DNA of 64,000 bases, from the sequence record NC_025447.1; one strand, given 5' to 3'. The notes beneath the pieces were generated by a model. That model saw only the letters and a program-made list of their open reading frames with translations. It did no database searches and was not told the origin of the DNA. This document shows, piece by piece, positions 26,102 through 54,254 of this stretch. How positions within the stretch are numbered: the stretch's first letter is position 1; each line of letters opens with the position of its first letter. This DNA comes from Escherichia phage 121Q. The translations under genes were made by a program, and so were the position numbers.

Positions 26102-29100
26102 TTAAGAACCGATATTAATATTACTTTTAGCTAGTGAGTTAACAATTTGAACATTTTCAACAGATGCAGTACTCAAAAATATTTGGTCTGAACGTGAAGG
26201 GATTTCAAATAGAGAACCAAATTTTGAATTTGGATTTTGTGCAACTATAACAATAGTACTAATATGTCTACCTAACTGTGAGTGTATGTAAGTACACAAA
26301 TCAGTATAATAGAAACTTTCACCGAAATCCCAGTTATCAACATTGAAGTATTCATTAGTTAATGCTATGACATTTTGACGAATTTCATCATCACTCATTG
26401 TGCTGTTTGGTAATTTCACTACTTTAAAATCAGCTTTGTAATCTTCAGCAGCACTGTTTCCAAATAAAGGTAAGTACTCAGCACTATGCCAAATGATACT
26501 ATCACTAATGACTATTTTTTGTTCAACATCTTTGAACATATCTTTTAATTCAACCGATGTTGGTGGTTTAGGAATACTACCAACAGCATTATTTTTCAAC
26601 CAAACGTCAACTTCAGTTTTATATGAATTGGTTAATACATACATATCAATTAAGTTTGTTCTACTAGGATCAATGCGATTGTCGTCAGGTGCATAGTGTT
26701 TCCAATGGAAGTCTATACTAGTACGTGCATTAGTTTTAACAGTGTACTGTGAAGTAACATCTTTGTATCCATAATAATCTAGCTTCTGATTCTCGTCAGC
26801 ATTAGTTCCCATGTTATTAATTGCACGATAAAAAGCCAATTCAGGACTAACAGTGCCAGTATCATCGGAATAAGTTAAATTACTAATTAGTTGTCCCAAA
26901 CGATCATTGTTATTGCCAACTGTTTGTTCAATAAAATAATATTTACCATCATAGTTAAAACCAACTAAAAATCCAGAACCTTTACTATATAATCCACTCA
27001 ATGTGGTTGAACGAATTGCGTTATTTCTAACAAATTCAGTTCTTTTATATGCATTCGGCTCTGCCAAAGCTTGTTCCATTGTATAAGACCACGATGAATC
27101 AAGAAGTGTGAAGGTATCATTTGGTAACGACAGTACTGATATAGTGAAATCACTATTTTCCTGAAATACCAAAATACCACCATATTTTAATGCATCGGTT
27201 CCAGTCCAAGTAGGAACAATTTCTTTAAATTGGTTTGGTTCCAATGGTATACCATTACTATCTACTTTCCTAGATGTAACAATAACACGAGAACCATCTA
27301 GATAGCCATTCTCTTGTTGAATTGTGTCATAAATTTGAAAATCTATATTACTTGTCAATCCTGAATTACTACTACTAGTAGTGTTAGATGATAAAATTTC
27401 AATCTTATCACTTTGAACTGTACCAGTACTTATATCAGTAATTTTTTTAGATGATACAAAGTAAAATCTTACTTTTTCTCCACCCACAAAAATATATTCA
27501 ATACCGTTAGCATCAAATTCCCAAGTTTCTGCTGTATATTTTACATTTATTATAATTAAAACTTCATTACCATTATACACAATAGTATCGTCATTAGTAC
27601 TTGCTTCGATTGGAACCCATGAAGTTGTTTCTTTATCATGTACAATTACAAAATCGGTTTTTTTATCCAACATAGCAGAAATAGACTGAACTTCAACTGT
27701 GTTAAATCTAGTTCTATATGGTAATATGTACTCTATTGCTTGCATTCCACTAGGAACAGATGTGCTTAGTACATAAAAACCATTATCTAACACACTTACA
27801 ACACTTGCCCATATCGTAGTACCAGAATTAGAAAATTTAATAAGAGTACCTACCTGATACGAACCATACACTGTTCCAGACGAACCCAAAATTCTGCCAT
27901 ATGTATTGGTTGTGTAATTTGAATTGTACACTGGAGTCCATGCTTGTTGTATTTCAATACCAATTGTATTGGATGGATACGCTTGGTAACGTTGTATTAC
28001 TGCATTTTCCCCAATCAATGGTTGAATATTGTCAATAACAATACTAGCATTTGTTTTTGTAGTTGGGAGCAATAACGATCTATTAAATTGCGTGTTTTCT
28101 TGATATAATGCACCATCATCACTAAAAACGTCGGTATTCTGATACTTACCAGTAGGATCATTGATATCAATGAACCTTGATTGACCACTATAAATTCTAT
28201 TAATAGCTTTAGATTTAAGTACTGTATTTCCTAAACTAAGTGGTGCTATATTATAATCTTCACCATTGACAAAACGGTTTTGGGTATAGTACATTTGTGG
28301 TGCACGTGCTTTAATCTGCTCAATAGTTTCAGCACTTTGTGCACGGTCGGATTCATATTGTAATGAAAAACGTATATCCAATGTACTAGATTCATAACTT
28401 GACTGTGTTTTTGTACGATATGTATATTTTACGCTTTTGTTTTGAATTTCAGAAGTTTTAATGTTATATGTTTTACCATTACTAACACGATACCATACAC
28501 GGAACGTCCCACGGGGAACAACACCACTTCTTGAGTCTGGGTACTTAATTGTTATTTGGTCTTTATCACGAGTAGTAACAGCAAAAATTGTTTTTAATTG
28601 ACGATTAACAGTGTTATATGCAATACTTTCCATTGATGGAACTTTTGTCCATTTGGTACGAACAATACCATCTTCATTTATTTCTTGAACCCATACATCA
28701 GTTTCGTTGATATTATCAACGTTAATATCTTGTATACGGTTCTCTTCACGGATAGCATATTGATAATCTTGATATGTTAATGTACCTTGTACGAAATATA
28801 CAAAAAACCCAGTATTTGGTGAGCTAAATCCATTACCATCATTTTGATAAACAATATATTTTTGCTCTTGTGGTTCTGGATGTCGTTCTTCAACACCAAC
28901 AGACGTAATATCAGGATTCACTACTTCAAATGTCATAGATTCACCATTGACAGTTGCAATAAATGGAATACTGGGTGCTGTCATTGGGATGGTGTTCATT
29001 CGATATAGTTGACGGGAGACACCATTAACATCAATACGCTTGACTGGATTACCAAATTGGTTAGTACTGACAAATGAACTGTTCATTACTAGAATAAAGT

Positions 29101-29563
29101 TTTCATACCAGTTAGCATCCATCGGGTCATTCCAACGAATAATTTTATCTTTTAATGATTCATTAAAACTATTACGAACATCTTGGTTTGTTTTAATTTC
29201 GGTTAATTTAGCAACTGCACGACCTGGATATGAGCGGCGTGGTGAGTAAGAAATCATTTTAGCTAGTTTTAGTACTGACGCACGACGAGTTGCAGTATCT
29301 AAAAAGTTTTCACGCGTGTTCAAATCCATACGAAATGCCAAGTTTTGTCCTAGCATAGAAATCGTATCTAAAATAAAAATAAACTGGTCGTTTTCGATCC
29401 AGTCGTTAAATGAATCTGGGTAAGTTGCACGTAGATAATCAATCATACTCTGACGGATAGTGTCGAAGTCATAAGCTGTTAGATTGATTTTATAAAAACT
29501 TTCATATACTTGAGTCCAATCCTCACCACTATATAAATTAGACTGTCTTTTTTGTTGTGACAT
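26102..29563 (-). CDS. Baseplate wedge protein, gpJ/gp6-like N-terminus
   Basis: 1153 aa; N-terminal region (DFDTIRQSMIDYLRATYPDSF...ATRRASVLKLAKMISYSPRRSYPGRA) resembles the baseplate J family as I recall it; position after the gp25-like gene matches the usual spike-W-J order. Confidence 0.5.
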   Translation of the reverse strand: MSQQKRQSNLYSGEDWTQVYESFYKINLTAYDFDTIRQSMIDYLRATYPDSFNDWIENDQFIFILDTISMLGQNLAFRMDLNTRENFLDTATRRASVLKLAKMISYSPRRSYPGRAVAKLTEIKTNQDVRNSFNESLKDKIIRWNDPMDANWYENFILVMNSSFVSTNQFGNPVKRIDVNGVSRQLYRMNTIPMTAPSIPFIATVNGESMTFEVVNPDITSVGVEERHPEPQEQKYIVYQNDGNGFSSPNTGFFVYFVQGTLTYQDYQYAIREENRIQDINVDNINETDVWVQEINEDGIVRTKWTKVPSMESIAYNTVNRQLKTIFAVTTRDKDQITIKYPDSRSGVVPRGTFRVWYRVSNGKTYNIKTSEIQNKSVKYTYRTKTQSSYESSTLDIRFSLQYESDRAQSAETIEQIKARAPQMYYTQNRFVNGEDYNIAPLSLGNTVLKSKAINRIYSGQSRFIDINDPTGKYQNTDVFSDDGALYQENTQFNRSLLLPTTKTNASIVIDNIQPLIGENAVIQRYQAYPSNTIGIEIQQAWTPVYNSNYTTNTYGRILGSSGTVYGSYQVGTLIKFSNSGTTIWASVVSVLDNGFYVLSTSVPSGMQAIEYILPYRTRFNTVEVQSISAMLDKKTDFVIVHDKETTSWVPIEASTNDDTIVYNGNEVLIIINVKYTAETWEFDANGIEYIFVGGEKVRFYFVSSKKITDISTGTVQSDKIEILSSNTTSSSNSGLTSNIDFQIYDTIQQENGYLDGSRVIVTSRKVDSNGIPLEPNQFKEIVPTWTGTDALKYGGILVFQENSDFTISVLSLPNDTFTLLDSSWSYTMEQALAEPNAYKRTEFVRNNAIRSTTLSGLYSKGSGFLVGFNYDGKYYFIEQTVGNNNDRLGQLISNLTYSDDTGTVSPELAFYRAINNMGTNADENQKLDYYGYKDVTSQYTVKTNARTSIDFHWKHYAPDDNRIDPSRTNLIDMYVLTNSYKTEVDVWLKNNAVGSIPKPPTSVELKDMFKDVEQKIVISDSIIWHSAEYLPLFGNSAAEDYKADFKVVKLPNSTMSDDEIRQNVIALTNEYFNVDNWDFGESFYYTDLCTYIHSQLGRHISTIVIVAQNPNSKFGSLFEIPSRSDQIFLSTASVENVQIVNSLAKSNINIGS

Positions 29564-29567
29564 TATT

Positions 29568-30332
29568 TTAATCCTTTAATAATATGTTAAAATTATCATA
29601 AAAGTACTTTTTTAGTACCGAAATATAGTCTTCATTATACTTCAATCGAAGTAAATTTATTCCATTCTCGGTGCAGTACGTGTTTTTAATTTTATCATTG
29701 TGTTGAGTTTGTTTTAGTGATTTTGTTCCACCCCAATGCTCTGAACATTGAAAATGTTGTTCACCATCATATTCGATACACAAGTTTAAATCTTCAATAT
29801 AAAAATCAAATGGCAATGTTAAAATATTCTTACAATTATCAAATCTCTTTTCTCTAACATATTTAAATGAAGATAATATATTTTCTATATCTGATACTGC
29901 CTTGGATTGAGTACTATCTCTCATACATTTTTCACACCCGTATCTACTATTCAAGTGATTATCAGGTCGCTGGTAGAATATACCATGTATTGGACAAATT
30001 ATTGATATATGTGTTTTATTATTAACATAATTAGCCATACTATAATCAAATTTATTTTTAAATTTAAAATTGGCTTTTTTCTTGAAATTTAAAAAATTAT
30101 GTGGACTTTTTTGCCTATTTGTATTATATTCAATAGAACATTTCATGCATCCTTTGCCACATGTATGGTCATTTGGTGTTTGTAGAAAAAATCCATGTTT
30201 TGCACAGCCAATCCATACTTTTGTTTTAGCATTATGATATTTAACCATACTATAGTCATATCGTATACCATGAACTTTTATCGCATTGGTTACAAATTTA
30301 TATTTTGTCGATCTAGTGGTTGCATATTTCAT
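29568..30332 (-). CDS. Homing-endonuclease-like protein: two zinc-ribbon repeats plus C-terminal PD-(D/E)XK-like motif
   Basis: 254 aa; repeats KVWIGCAKHGFFLQTPNDHTCGKGCMKC and HISIICPIHGIFYQRPDNHLNSRYGCEKC; C-terminal FDFYIEDLNLCIEYDGEQH. Inserted between baseplate genes. Confidence 0.5.
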   Translation of the reverse strand: MKYATTRSTKYKFVTNAIKVHGIRYDYSMVKYHNAKTKVWIGCAKHGFFLQTPNDHTCGKGCMKCSIEYNTNRQKSPHNFLNFKKKANFKFKNKFDYSMANYVNNKTHISIICPIHGIFYQRPDNHLNSRYGCEKCMRDSTQSKAVSDIENILSSFKYVREKRFDNCKNILTLPFDFYIEDLNLCIEYDGEQHFQCSEHWGGTKSLKQTQHNDKIKNTYCTENGINLLRLKYNEDYISVLKKYFYDNFNILLKD

Positions 30333-30367
30333 ACATCACTCCATGATTTATATAGAAATATTTATTC

Positions 30368-30394
30368 AAAAAGAAAAGCACTCCGAAGAGTGCT
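30368..30394 (-). terminator. Rho-independent terminator
   Basis: Stem AGCACTC/GAGTGCT (30377-30394) followed on the minus strand by a T-run. Confidence 0.5.
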
Positions 30395-30401
30395 TTTGTA
30401 A

Positions 30402-30797
30402 TTATAAAGACGATACTGAATATGTTGCCATTCTGTTATTACTTCTTGCATCGAATACAATAGTAAGTTCTTCTAATGTATCCAATACTACGTACTGTAA
30501 TACAATATTCATTTGGTATCCATATTCTATTCTTGAAATTTGTAATTTTTTAAGATTTAAACGTGGGTCTAAGCTAATTATTCTACGGGCATCTGCTTCT
30601 AAAAGGTTGATAGTATTATAACCTTCCAATTCAAATAGCAAATCCCATGCAATAAACCCATAGTCAGCATCAAATGCTCGTTCACCTTTTTTTGTATTGA
30701 AATGATTCATTAAATCTTGGCGAACCAATTCACTATCATACAATGTTTCAGTTCTACCAACTACAGGGGTAGAAAACCCTTTAAAAACAACTGCCAT
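30402..30797 (-). CDS. Baseplate wedge protein, gp25/gpW-like
   Basis: 131 aa; TKKGERAFDADYGFIAWDLLFE matches my recollection of T4 gp25 TRKGSRPFDPEFGCDLSDQLFE. Confidence 0.6.
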   Translation of the reverse strand: MAVVFKGFSTPVVGRTETLYDSELVRQDLMNHFNTKKGERAFDADYGFIAWDLLFELEGYNTINLLEADARRIISLDPRLNLKKLQISRIEYGYQMNIVLQYVVLDTLEELTIVFDARSNNRMATYSVSSL

Positions 30798-52434: not shown

Positions 52435-53532
52435 ATGCCAAACGTAAGTATCAACAAAGAAGAGTTTATCAGCAAAATGACTGCTAAGTATGGTGAATTT
52501 GATTTCAGTACTTTAGTATTCAAAGCAAGTAAAACAACTGTGAAATGTAACAAGTGTGGAAAAGAAAACATAAAATCTGCACTTCGTCACATTGCATGTA
52601 CATGTGCATCATGTTATTCAAACATGTCGCAACGTTCAAACAACGACACATTCATCAGCACGGTAGAAAATAAATTTGGTAAAGATAAATTCAAATTTGA
52701 TAAACTAAATTACACTAACGCTATAACAAAAGTAACACTCTTTTGCACTGATGAAGAGCACAACGATTACTTTGAAATAACACCAAACAAATTTCTTTCT
52801 GGTAAGGGATGTCCTGTGTGTAATAAAAATGAAGCATACAGTACTGAATCATTCACTGCAAAAGTAAAAGAAAACTATGGTGATGCATTGGATTTGACAA
52901 ATACTGTTTATGTCAATCAGAAAACTAAAGTAACGGTTCATTGCACAAAAGGACATCACGACTGGACAGTAGATCCAAAAACTTTAATCGTCGGTAAAAC
53001 TGGCTGTGGTACATGCTCTGGTAAAGGTGGACGAAGTACTGAGCGTTTCATTGAACTAGTATCACCAATTCATAACCATAAGTATGATTATAGCTTGGTG
53101 GATTATACAACAAGTGAGAAGTATGTGGATATTGTGTGTCCGACGCATGGTGTTTTTTCCCAACAACCAAAAGCACATATGGCGGGTAAAGGATGTCCAT
53201 CATGTGGTGAATATGGATATCAACCATCAAAACCTGGATATTTCTATGTTCAAAAACTAACTAACAATGACAAGACGGTGTACAAATATGGAATCACTGG
53301 TGATATGAAACGCCGTGTAAACGAACAAAGTCGTAATTCTGGGTTCGAACATGAAGTACTAGTAGAACGCTACTTTGAAGATGGAAATCAACCATTACTG
53401 TTGGAAAAGTTCATAAAGAAATACATTGAAAGTGGAGTAGTAAGTACTGAAGAGTTGCCGTCAGGATTTACTGAAACGTTTGATGAAAAGTATCTAAAAT
53501 CTGTACTGGAAATTGTAAATAACTTTAAGTAA
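52435..53532 (+). CDS. Homing-endonuclease-like protein: three zinc-ribbon repeats plus C-terminal GIY-YIG/T5orf172-like domain
   Basis: 365 aa; repeats ...CTDEEHNDYFEITPNKFLSGKGCPVC, ...CTKGHHDWTVDPKTLIVGKTGCGTC, ...CPTHGVFSQQPKAHMAGKGCPSC; C-terminal GYFYVQKLTNNDKTVYKYGITGDMKRRVNEQ. Confidence 0.5.
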   Translation: MPNVSINKEEFISKMTAKYGEFDFSTLVFKASKTTVKCNKCGKENIKSALRHIACTCASCYSNMSQRSNNDTFISTVENKFGKDKFKFDKLNYTNAITKVTLFCTDEEHNDYFEITPNKFLSGKGCPVCNKNEAYSTESFTAKVKENYGDALDLTNTVYVNQKTKVTVHCTKGHHDWTVDPKTLIVGKTGCGTCSGKGGRSTERFIELVSPIHNHKYDYSLVDYTTSEKYVDIVCPTHGVFSQQPKAHMAGKGCPSCGEYGYQPSKPGYFYVQKLTNNDKTVYKYGITGDMKRRVNEQSRNSGFEHEVLVERYFEDGNQPLLLEKFIKKYIESGVVSTEELPSGFTETFDEKYLKSVLEIVNNFK

Positions 53533-53927: not shown

Positions 53928-54254
53928 ATGATGGAGATTGAATCTATGTCACAGATATGTTATGTTATAATAAATTCTGCATGGCCTGAGTATGTTAAAA
54001 TTGGTTTTACTTCAAAATCAGAAATGACAGAACGTCTAAGAACGTATCAGACTGCTACACCATTTCGTGACTTTGAAGTATATCATGAAGTTCATTTTGA
54101 TGACGCACGTTTAGCTGAAAAAGAGATACATAAAAGGCTTAAACAAATGAATGCAACTAGACAACCAAACACGGAGTGGTTTAAAATGTCTAAAAAGATA
54201 GCAGCAAACATCATTGATTCTGTGTGGGATGATATGGATAACGACTTGCTATAG
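53928..54254 (+). CDS. GIY-YIG/T5orf172-like domain protein
   Basis: 108 aa; CYVIINSAWPEYVKIGFTSKSEMTERLRTYQT fits the pattern of a hydrophobic strand, then KIG-T, then a conserved Arg. Confidence 0.45.
   Translation: MMEIESMSQICYVIINSAWPEYVKIGFTSKSEMTERLRTYQTATPFRDFEVYHEVHFDDARLAEKEIHKRLKQMNATRQPNTEWFKMSKKIAANIIDSVWDDMDNDLL

What the first reader, a model, noticed from the sequence alone, without database searches (positions are those of the whole stretch)
29568..30332. Second repeat-containing endonuclease-like gene inserted within the baseplate operon
It has the same zinc-ribbon repeat architecture as the 52435 gene but a different C-terminal module (FDFYIEDLNLCIEYDGEQH, PD-(D/E)XK-like). 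Shared DNA-binding repeats with different nuclease domains suggest modular shuffling among the mobile endonucleases of this phage.
Basis: partly seen in the sequence, partly recalled or inferred. Interest (0 to 1): 0.5.

Follow-up and report, generated by a model that had tools for sequence, protein, structure and literature searches.

The report
Zinc-finger/Vsr-like homing endonuclease in baseplate operon
This is an intact selfish "homing endonuclease" gene sitting between two baseplate genes of an E. coli jumbo phage; its type (zinc-finger DNA-binding repeats plus a Vsr-like nuclease) has already been described, so it is a well-documented but ordinary example.

Summary
Window 29568-30332 (- strand) is an intact 254-aa ORF. 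It has two tandem ~60-aa DUF723/CapR-type zinc-finger units and a ~115-aa C-terminal nuclease domain. The units are homologous to the four units of the 52435 gene. The C-terminal domain has a Vsr-like fold, a branch of the PD-(D/E)XK superfamily, and is related to the EDxHD nuclease of I-Bth0305I. It is not an HNH nuclease, although GenBank and PHROG label it so.

The gene behaves as a free-standing homing endonuclease gene:
- Among about 35 related Asteriusvirus genomes, only JP4 and JNE01 carry it.
- Phage TH47 has a different, GIY-YIG-type endonuclease gene at the same spot.
- The five closest metagenomic homologues (46-64% identity, two or three fingers) lie at the same gp25|gp6 junction.
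- Sequence exchange clusters in the ~100 nt of the gp6-like gene next to the insert.
- dN/dS of about 0.1 shows a maintained protein.

This architecture was described in 2025 as a large outgroup of EDxHD/Vsr homing endonucleases, so this is a new member of a known kind. "Modular shuffling" holds only at deep family level. The two genes share no nucleotide similarity, so nothing points to recent exchange within this phage.

The parts
29568..30332 (-). Free-standing homing endonuclease gene, 254 aa, stop codon included
   Evidence: ORF. PHROG 559 at E 1.6e-57. 97% identical to a JP4 protein and 83% to a JNE01 protein. dN/dS 0.09-0.12.
30135..30296 (-). Zinc-finger unit 1 (residues 13-66; C43-x2-H46 ... 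C62-x2-C65)
   Evidence: AF2 model shows helix, beta-hairpin, short helix. C43, C62 and C65 are invariant in 42 homologues.
29922..30095 (-). Zinc-finger unit 2 (residues 80-137; C113-x2-H116 ... C133-x2-C136)
   Evidence: Pfam DUF723 at E 4e-6, above the gathering score..
29571..29921 (-). Vsr-like (EDxHD-related, PD-(D/E)XK superfamily) nuclease domain, residues 138-254
   Evidence: AF2 pLDDT 90.6, pTM 0.83. Foldseek hits to Vsr, RAP domains, TnsA and PvuRts1I. BFVD hits. Pfam DUF2726, DUF5889, DUF559 and PvuRts1I_N across homologues.
29754..29810 (-). Catalytic core motif FDFYIEDLNLCIEYDGEQH (D176, E187, D189, H193). D213, K216 and R229 follow downstream.
   Evidence: These residues are invariant in 42 homologues. 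hhalign places DFY/IExDG on I-Bth0305I DFYL/IEVNG.
30333..30373 (-). Short leader of the endonuclease gene: late-promoter-like TATAAAT and a GGAG ribosome-binding site (30339-30342)
   Evidence: Read directly from the sequence. The promoter assignment is an inference.
30374..30397 (-). Intrinsic terminator hairpin after the gp25-like gene, conserved in genomes with and without the insert. Marks the upstream edge of the insertion site.
   Evidence: alignments.
29462..29567 (.). 5' end of the gp6-like gene plus its ribosome-binding site. A patch of clustered sequence exchange next to the insert, and the predicted region of the cleavage or recognition site.
   Evidence: 12 of 23 JP4/PBECO4 differences and 27 JNE01/Turkey5 differences fall here. 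JNE01 is 98.4% identical to the window in 29500-29563 against ~80% in the flanks.
29596..29625 (-). 3'-terminal coding stretch (..SVLKKYFYD..) that is homologous to the AGTACT-N5-AGTACT hairpin kept in 'empty' sites
   Evidence: Local alignment against shuffles; sequence listing.
26102..29563 (-). gp6-like baseplate wedge gene, immediately downstream. Its start codon lies 4 nt after the endonuclease stop codon, and its Shine-Dalgarno sequence lies inside the last endonuclease codons.
30402..30797 (-). gp25-like (GPW/gp25) baseplate wedge gene, immediately upstream
   Evidence: Pfam GPW_gp25 in the syntenic loci.
52435..53532 (+). Comparison gene: four homologous zinc-finger units plus a T5orf172/GIY-YIG-clan C-terminus. 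Also variably present among relatives.

Best explanation
The ORF is an active, free-standing homing endonuclease gene. Two DUF723/CapR-type zinc-finger units would bind a specific DNA sequence. The C-terminal Vsr-like nuclease (D176, E187/D189, H193, D213), probably Mg2+-dependent, would cut the allele that lacks the gene. The cut site is most likely at or within ~100 bp of the gp25|gp6 junction, in the 5' end of the gp6-like gene. During co-infection, repair of the break from a genome carrying the gene copies the gene and a short flanking tract into the recipient.

The gene sits after the gp25 terminator and ends 4 nt before the gp6 start codon, with the gp6 ribosome-binding site inside its last codons, so gp6 expression is preserved.

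Shown here: the ORF, repeat homology, the fold, sporadic distribution, same-site orthologues, clustered exchange and purifying selection. Inferred: cleavage activity, location of the target, and the homing itself.
For: Architecture:
- Two repeat units homologous to DUF723/DUF4379/CapR fingers.
- High-confidence models (pLDDT 91.9 and 90.6).
- The C-terminal domain matches Vsr (prob 0.93-0.98, TM 0.50-0.56), Vsr-like RAP domains, TnsA and PvuRts1I.
- 169 viral structures match at E<=1e-3, including 'homing endonuclease', 'group I intron protein', DUF2726 and DUF559 proteins.
- The I-Bth0305I catalytic fragment and this domain both hit the same region of PHROG 559 best (5.9e-10 and 6.2e-34). hhalign gives E 8e-4 and aligns DFY and IExxG.
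- D176, E187, D189, H193, D213, K216 and R229 are invariant in 42 homologues.

Mobility signatures:
- The gene is present in only JP4 and JNE01 among about 35 Asteriusvirus records.
- TH47 has a different HEG (PHROG 314 'homing endonuclease', GIY..YIG start) at the same site.
- P0004, P0014, P0017, P0022 and P0063 (46-64% identity) all lie between gp25-like and gp6-like genes.
- JP4 is 99.6-99.9% identical to PBECO4 in the flanks, yet 12 of their 23 differences lie in 29468-29571, where 0.6 would be expected.
- JNE01 and Turkey5 are 98% identical in the flanks but show 27 differences in 29462-29571.

Function maintained: dN/dS is 0.12, 0.09 and 0.19 against JP4, JNE01 and L011.

Literature:
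- The architecture is described as an outgroup of EDxHD/Vsr HEGs (PMC12350094).
- Zinc-finger repeat arrays are described as HEG DNA-binding modules (PMC10448857).
- Co-conversion next to free-standing HEGs is established (PMC2988022).
Against: - No cleavage or homing experiment exists for this protein or for any close relative.
- Foldseek E-values against solved structures never drop below 1e-3. Sequence and profile searches of the PDB find nothing. hhalign probability against I-Bth0305I is only 24%.
- The first acidic residue of the EDxHD motif (Vsr E25 / I-Bth0305I E170; 'SKGE' in the wider family) is Val147 here, and is missing in the whole gp25|gp6-site clade.
- Synonymous divergence of the gene between the window and JNE01 (pS 0.60) equals that of the backbone (pS 0.66). 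Long vertical residence with repeated loss is therefore as compatible with the data as recent transfer.
- phAPEC6 lacks the gene but carries the haplotype linked to it.
- A Vsr-type domain is a nickase on its own, so a double-strand cut would need dimerisation. That is untested.
Confidence: 0.8

Rival explanations
1. It is an HNH endonuclease, as annotated in phage JP4 and in the PHROG 559 label.
For: The JP4 annotation reads 'HNH endonuclease'. PHROG 559 is described as 'HNH endonuclease'. The zinc fingers carry Cys/His motifs that can be mistaken for an HNH zinc site.
Against: No HNH-family Pfam model matches even at E<=1. The protein covers only positions 194-408 of the 607-position PHROG profile, and the Vsr-like I-Bth0305I domain matches that same region. 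The structure searches return Vsr-like and PD-(D/E)XK folds only.
Confidence: 0.03
2. It is a resident, vertically inherited gene that has been lost in most relatives. It may be retained for a benefit to the phage, such as excluding co-infecting relatives or attacking satellites, and is not currently homing.
For: Gene and backbone are equally diverged between the window and JNE01 (pS 0.60 vs 0.66). 'Empty' sites keep a stretch homologous to the gene's 3' end, which fits deletion from an ancestor that carried it. Purifying selection is strong. Domestication of zinc-finger HEG relatives is documented in ICP1 (PMC10448857).
Against: JP4 vs PBECO4 and JNE01 vs Turkey5 are near-identical backbones that differ by the gene plus a ~100-nt patch, which indicates recent exchange exactly at this site. 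Another HEG family occupies the same site in TH47. Marker exclusion is itself the usual consequence of homing (PMC2988022), so this rival overlaps the main explanation.
Confidence: 0.12
3. It is a decaying or inactive endonuclease remnant, or a DNA-binding regulator that has lost catalysis.
For: The conserved Glu of the N-terminal helix ('SKGE') is replaced by Val147. There are only two fingers, against three to five in most relatives.
Against: The ORF is intact in three phages with dN/dS ~0.1, including the nuclease domain on its own (0.13). All other invariant active-site residues are kept. The same Glu loss is shared by the whole same-site clade, which is itself under constraint.
Confidence: 0.05

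Closest known systems
CapR/DUF4379/DUF723-like repeat + EDxHD/Vsr-like homing endonucleases described in phage group I/II introns (PMC12350094, NAR 2025)
   Same: Same two-part architecture: tandem ~60-aa zinc-finger domains followed by a ~100-aa Vsr-like nuclease domain. That paper notes thousands of unannotated relatives.
   Different: The described cases are intron-encoded with three to five fingers. This gene is free-standing and intergenic, has two fingers, and sits in a structural-gene operon.
I-Bth0305I (EDxHD family prototype; PDB 3R3P; PMC3239194)
   Same: Vsr-like catalytic domain. Asp, His and Asp (D196/H213/D222) correspond to D176/H193/D213. The D-to-H spacing of 17 residues is the same. 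Both match the same region of PHROG 559.
   Different: I-Bth0305I binds DNA with NUMOD/HTH motifs and is intron-encoded in recA. Its core reads IEVNGxxWH, against IEYDGxxH here. The family's first Glu is absent here (Val147). There is a 10-residue insertion between H193 and D213.
Hef and Hef-like free-standing endonucleases of T4-related phages (e.g. F-LimIII of LIMEstone1, upstream of a baseplate wedge gene; PMC3296691)
   Same: Free-standing genes with a Vsr-like core, inserted next to conserved structural or replication genes.
   Different: Only a weak core match (BLASTP E 0.15). F-LimIII is 547 aa with DUF7487 and no DUF723 fingers.
T5orf172 (GIY-YIG clan) homing endonucleases with CapR/DUF723 finger arrays, as in ICP1 and in the window's own 52435 gene (PMC10448857)
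   Same: Same kind of repeated zinc-finger DNA-binding array. Variable presence, and location beside essential genes.
   Different: Different nuclease superfamily at the C-terminus.
T4 seg/mob free-standing homing endonucleases (e.g. SegG)
   Same: Intergenic insertion between conserved genes, sporadic distribution, and co-conversion of adjacent markers.
   Different: GIY-YIG or HNH catalytic domains and different DNA-binding modules.

Membership tests
EDxHD / Vsr-like homing endonucleases (I-Bth0305I type) | Vsr-like alpha/beta nuclease fold | tested here: met
   AF2 C-terminal model has pLDDT 90.6. Foldseek to 1vsr gives prob 0.93 and TM 0.56/0.50, and to 1cw0 prob 0.98. Vsr-like RAP domains score prob up to 1.0. 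E-values are modest (>=4e-3).
EDxHD / Vsr-like homing endonucleases (I-Bth0305I type) | Conserved Asp (Vsr D51), His (Vsr H69) and Asp (Vsr D97) | tested here: met
   D176, H193 and D213 are invariant in 42 homologues and aligned to I-Bth0305I and Vsr by hhalign.
EDxHD / Vsr-like homing endonucleases (I-Bth0305I type) | Conserved N-terminal Glu (Vsr E25 / I-Bth0305I E170) | tested here: not met
   The aligned position is Val147. The wider family has 'SKGE', but the window clade has SKAV/SKPI. D148 and E150 lie nearby.
EDxHD / Vsr-like homing endonucleases (I-Bth0305I type) | Detectable sequence homology to the I-Bth0305I catalytic domain | tested here: inconclusive
   Both have PHROG 559 as best hit in the same profile region (5.9e-10 vs 6.2e-34). 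hhalign gives E 8e-4 but probability only 24%. No direct PDB sequence hit.
EDxHD / Vsr-like homing endonucleases (I-Bth0305I type) | NUMOD/HTH N-terminal DNA-binding region | tested here: not met
   The N-terminus is two DUF723 zinc-finger units.
CapR-like zinc-finger repeat + EDxHD/Vsr-like HEG outgroup (PMC12350094) | Tandem ~60-aa CapR/DUF4379/DUF723-like domains followed by a ~100-aa Vsr-like domain | tested here: met
   Two units plus a 117-aa nuclease domain. The paper describes three to five units; close relatives here have two to five.
Free-standing homing endonuclease gene (operational definition) | Sporadic presence at a fixed site between conserved genes in otherwise collinear genomes | tested here: met
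   and 53-57.
Free-standing homing endonuclease gene (operational definition) | Co-conversion of flanking sequence with the gene | tested here: met
   Differences cluster in 29462-29571 in two independent backgrounds. The interpretation as co-conversion is an inference.
Free-standing homing endonuclease gene (operational definition) | Site-specific cleavage of the gene-less allele and super-Mendelian inheritance | not testable with these tools
   Needs biochemistry and phage crosses.
HNH endonucleases (database label) | HNH / beta-beta-alpha-metal catalytic motif | tested here: not met
   No HNH Pfam family matches at E<=1, and no HNH fold appears among the structure hits.
Canonical PD-(D/E)XK nucleases | D ... 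(D/E)-x-K motif on the core beta-strands | tested here: inconclusive
   The core reads D176 ... E187-Y-D189, with His193 and a distal K216 in place of the canonical Lys. This is the Vsr-like variant of the superfamily.

The most novel reading that the evidence does not exclude
This is one lineage of zinc-finger/Vsr-like endonucleases that has tracked a single target, the gp25|gp6 baseplate junction, across jumbo phages whose copies are 46-64% identical. Along the way it has gained or lost a finger (two vs three). 'Empty' alleles keep a relic of the gene's 3' end, and a ~130-nt conversion patch marks the cut site. If true, this is a natural series for reading how finger number and sequence set target specificity. 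The clade-wide loss of the first EDxHD glutamate might also point to altered catalysis.
Probability: 0.4. Interest if true: 0.4.

Novelty: new member of a known kind. Interest (0 to 1): 0.28.

Why it matters
Practical value:
- It corrects a propagated misannotation: 'HNH endonuclease' should read Vsr-like/EDxHD-related.
- It flags the gp25|gp6 junction of Asteriusvirus-type jumbo phages as a homing hotspot used by at least two endonuclease families.

Value to specialists:
- Near-isogenic pairs that differ by the gene (JP4/PBECO4 and JNE01/Turkey5), together with same-site orthologues carrying two or three fingers, give a ready-made system. It could be used to map a target and to test how DUF723/CapR finger arrays read DNA.
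- No member of this very large group has been characterised biochemically.

It does not reveal a new kind of element.

Tried and rejected
- Sequence (phmmer) and profile (hmmsearch) searches of the PDB with the protein and with a 42-sequence alignment found nothing useful.
- NCBIfam found nothing.
- hhalign of the C-terminal profile against the single E. coli Vsr sequence was insignificant (prob 0.14), although it paired DF with DF correctly.
- The Sandegren 2005 Hef paper is not held. I used a Hef-like protein of LIMEstone1 instead, and it showed only a weak core match.
- Exact-pattern scans of IMG/VR for the two gp6 5' haplotypes found no contigs, so the haplotype/gene association rests on GenBank phages only.
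- Recent domain shuffling between the two window genes is rejected: there is no nucleotide similarity.
- HNH identity is rejected.
- A simple deletion between the 7-nt ATATTTC direct repeats was considered as the origin of the empty site. It is rejected because the empty-site sequence does not fit that junction.

Full report
**The observation**

Window 29568..30332 on the - strand is an ATG-to-TAA ORF of 254 aa. It contains the quoted motif FDFYIEDLNLCIEYDGEQH at residues 175-193.

It holds two units with the spacing C-x2-H ... C-x2-C, at residues 13-66 and 80-137. The ORF at 52435..53532 holds four such units.

The units are homologous on formal alignment:
- BLASTP of residues 13-136 against residues 140-257 of the 52435 protein gives E 9e-16 at 30% identity.
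- A six-unit alignment keeps an invariant Phe, one Cys and the C-x2-C pair.
- Pfam DUF723 is above its gathering score for unit 2, and DUF4379 ('probable treble clef zinc finger') is a weak hit for unit 1.
- A repeat HMM finds no other ORF in the window. That HMM was built from these same six units, so it is not an independent detection test.

**The genome and the site**

The window is an Asteriusvirus, a PBECO4/121Q-like E. coli jumbo phage. Two genes flank the ORF:
- upstream, a GPW/gp25-family baseplate wedge gene (30402..30797);
- downstream, a 1153-aa gp6-like baseplate wedge gene (26102..29563).

An intrinsic terminator hairpin (30374-30397) follows the gp25-like gene. Next come a TATAAAT element and a GGAG ribosome-binding site, then the ORF. 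The ORF stops 4 nt before the gp6 ATG, and the gp6 Shine-Dalgarno sequence lies in its last codons. The insert therefore leaves expression of the essential downstream gene intact.

**The nuclease domain**

AlphaFold models are confident: the full protein has pLDDT 91.9, and the C-terminal 117 aa alone has pLDDT 90.6 and pTM 0.83.

Foldseek against solved structures returns only Vsr-like and PD-(D/E)XK folds:
- E. coli Vsr: 1vsr prob 0.93-0.96 with TM 0.50-0.56, and 1cw0 prob 0.98;
- RAP-type Vsr-like domains of mitoribosomal proteins, prob up to 1.0;
- TnsA, PvuRts1I and AbaSI.

The E-values are modest (>=4e-3). Against predicted viral structures there are 169 matches at E<=1e-3, with TM up to 0.86. 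They are named DUF2726, DUF559, 'homing endonuclease', 'group I intron protein' and 'restriction endonuclease'.

Across 28 homologous C-termini, Pfam finds DUF2726 (22 of 28), DUF5889 (21), DUF559 (13) and PvuRts1I-like_N (8, best 7e-6).

I recovered the catalytic fragment of I-Bth0305I (PDB 3R3P) from an alignment to Vsr. Its best PHROG hit is PHROG 559, profile positions 313-403, E 5.9e-10. That is the same family and region that this domain matches at 6.2e-34. hhalign aligns DFY(I/L) and IE(Y/V)(D/N)G with E 8e-4, but with probability only 24%.

In 42 homologues D176, E187, D189, G190, H193, D213, K216 and R229 are invariant. D176, H193 and D213 correspond to I-Bth0305I D196, H213 and D222, that is Vsr D51, H69 and D97 (PMC3239194).

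One defining residue is missing. The family's N-terminal Glu ('SKGE', Vsr E25) is Val147 here, and is absent from the whole same-site clade.

No HNH model matches. The 'HNH endonuclease' label in JP4 and in PHROG 559 is therefore a misnomer for this part of the profile.

**Evidence for mobility**

1. *Sporadic distribution.* Of about 35 Asteriusvirus records, only JP4 (97% protein identity) and JNE01 (83%) carry the gene. The others align in two pieces and lack ~740 bp.

2. *Site shared with another endonuclease family.* TH47 carries a different 235-aa ORF at the same place. It begins ..YGFIYQWEDSTNGIKYIGS.., matches PHROG 314 'homing endonuclease' at 1.9e-14, and has weak GIY-YIG and I-TevI DNA-binding Pfam hits.

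3. *Same-site orthologues.* The five closest metagenomic homologues all lie between a gp25-family gene and a ~1150-aa gp6-like gene. They are P0004 (64% identity, two fingers) and P0014, P0017, P0022 and P0063 (46-49%, three fingers). This is a site-specific lineage whose finger number varies.

4. *Clustered exchange next to the insert.*
   - JP4 and PBECO4 are 99.6% and 99.9% identical in the left and right flanks. Yet 12 of their 23 differences lie in 29468-29571, where 0.6 would be expected by length.
   - JNE01 and Turkey5 are 98% identical in the flanks but have 27 differences in 29462-29571. They have none in the 149 nt before that patch, and none in the first ~35 nt upstream of the insert, the nearest being two substitutions in the terminator-hairpin loop (30385, 30387).
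   - In JNE01, a patch from about 29490 to 29618 is 94-98% identical to the window, while the gene body and the gp6 gene on either side are ~70-80% identical.
   - This one-sided patch spans the gene's 3' end and the gp6 5' end. Break repair near this junction would leave exactly such a trace (inference; principle in PMC2988022).
   - Within the PBECO4-like group, 16 gene-less phages share one haplotype across 29462-29563 (93.1% identical to the window). Only gene-carrying JP4 and gene-less phAPEC6 share the window haplotype. The differences are five synonymous changes plus S12A in gp6.

5. *A relic in 'empty' sites.* All six empty sites examined keep CAGTACTGAACTAGTACTTTACTGAT upstream of the gp6 ribosome-binding site.
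   - Its best local match in the gene is the syntenic 3' end (..TCAGTACTAAAAAAGTACTTTTATGAT..). Only 7 of 2000 shuffles reach that score.
   - The same holds for the L011 and L015 orthologues, but not for L012.
   - That stretch encodes part of the last helix of the nuclease domain and is conserved in the clade. It therefore looks like a remnant of the gene, or a shared functional hairpin, and not a chance match.

**Is the protein maintained?**

dN/dS is 0.12 against JP4, 0.09 against JNE01 and 0.19 against L011, and 0.13 for the nuclease domain alone. The protein is under purifying selection.

Synonymous divergence between the window and JNE01 copies (pS 0.60) equals that of gp6 (pS 0.66). 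The gene has therefore been resident for a long time in both lineages. The data fit a gain/loss cycle, not a single recent invasion.

**Comparison with what is known**

- Zinc-finger repeat arrays (CapR, DUF723, DUF4379) as modular DNA-binding parts of phage homing endonucleases are described for T5orf172 enzymes, with evidence of domain exchange (PMC10448857).
- The exact combination found here was described in 2025 for intron-encoded phage enzymes. [quoted passage not shown]
- tblastn finds relatives in 996 phage records.
- Hef-like free-standing endonucleases share only the nuclease core.

The gene is thus a new, free-standing, two-finger member of a known kind.

The two window genes do share a homologous DNA-binding module joined to different nuclease superfamilies: a Vsr-like domain here, and a weak T5orf172/GIY-YIG-clan domain in the 52435 gene.

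But the repeats are ~30% identical in protein and show no nucleotide similarity. Each gene's nearest relatives share its own full architecture. The shuffling is ancient and at family level, and did not happen in this phage.

**Verdict**

The element is an ordinary, already-described kind of mobile gene. Its modest interest lies in the well-resolved insertion site, in the near-isogenic pairs that differ by the gene, and in the same-site orthologues with different finger numbers.

Noticed in passing
L004:2067-2774 (Escherichia virus TH47, MT446416), syntenic with window 29568-30332: A different 235-aa GIY-YIG-type homing endonuclease ORF occupies the same gp25|gp6 junction. It ends at the same TAA just upstream of the gp6 start codon. 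It matches PHROG 314 at 1.9e-14 and has a weak I-TevI DNA-binding domain hit.
   Followed up: partly
window 52435-53532 and 53928-54254: The four-finger T5orf172-type gene downstream of the major capsid gene is also variably present: full in 11 records, partial in about 8, and absent in about 14, including PBECO4. A stand-alone 108-aa T5orf172/MUG113 ORF (Pfam E 7e-13) lies just after it and appears to persist where the larger gene is absent, judging from the PBECO4 annotation under the match.
   Followed up: partly
empty gp25|gp6 sites, e.g. L001:2065-2165 (PBECO4); window equivalent 29596-29625: All gene-less relatives examined keep an AGTACT-N5-AGTACT hairpin that is homologous to the 3' end of the endonuclease gene. 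It could be a relic of an ancestral copy or a functional element upstream of gp6. Because it is palindromic, it is also a candidate recognition site.
   Followed up: partly
L006 (phAPEC6, MK817115), equivalent of window 29529-29546: This phage lacks the endonuclease gene but carries the gp6 5' haplotype otherwise seen only with the gene (AGACAGTCT..TATAGTGG). It may be a cleavage-resistant allele that lost the gene, or the ancestral donor background.
   Followed up: no
L010:3294-4186 (Klebsiella phage Muenster, MT708547): Two small opposite-strand ORFs (140 and 152 aa, no Pfam hit) are inserted between the lysozyme gene and the gp5-like hub gene of the same baseplate operon in this related Alcyoneusvirus.
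   Followed up: partly
window 29568-30332; JP4 CDS0680; PHROG 559: The 'HNH endonuclease' label attached to this family by PHROG-based annotation is wrong for the region matched here. The I-Bth0305I Vsr-like domain maps to the same profile positions.
   Followed up: yes
window 29892-29894 (Val147) and homologues P0004, P0014, P0017, P0022, P0063: The whole same-site clade has lost the conserved Glu of the 'SKGE' helix (equivalent to Vsr E25). An acidic residue two positions later (D148) is mostly conserved, which may mean the metal ligand has moved.
   Followed up: no
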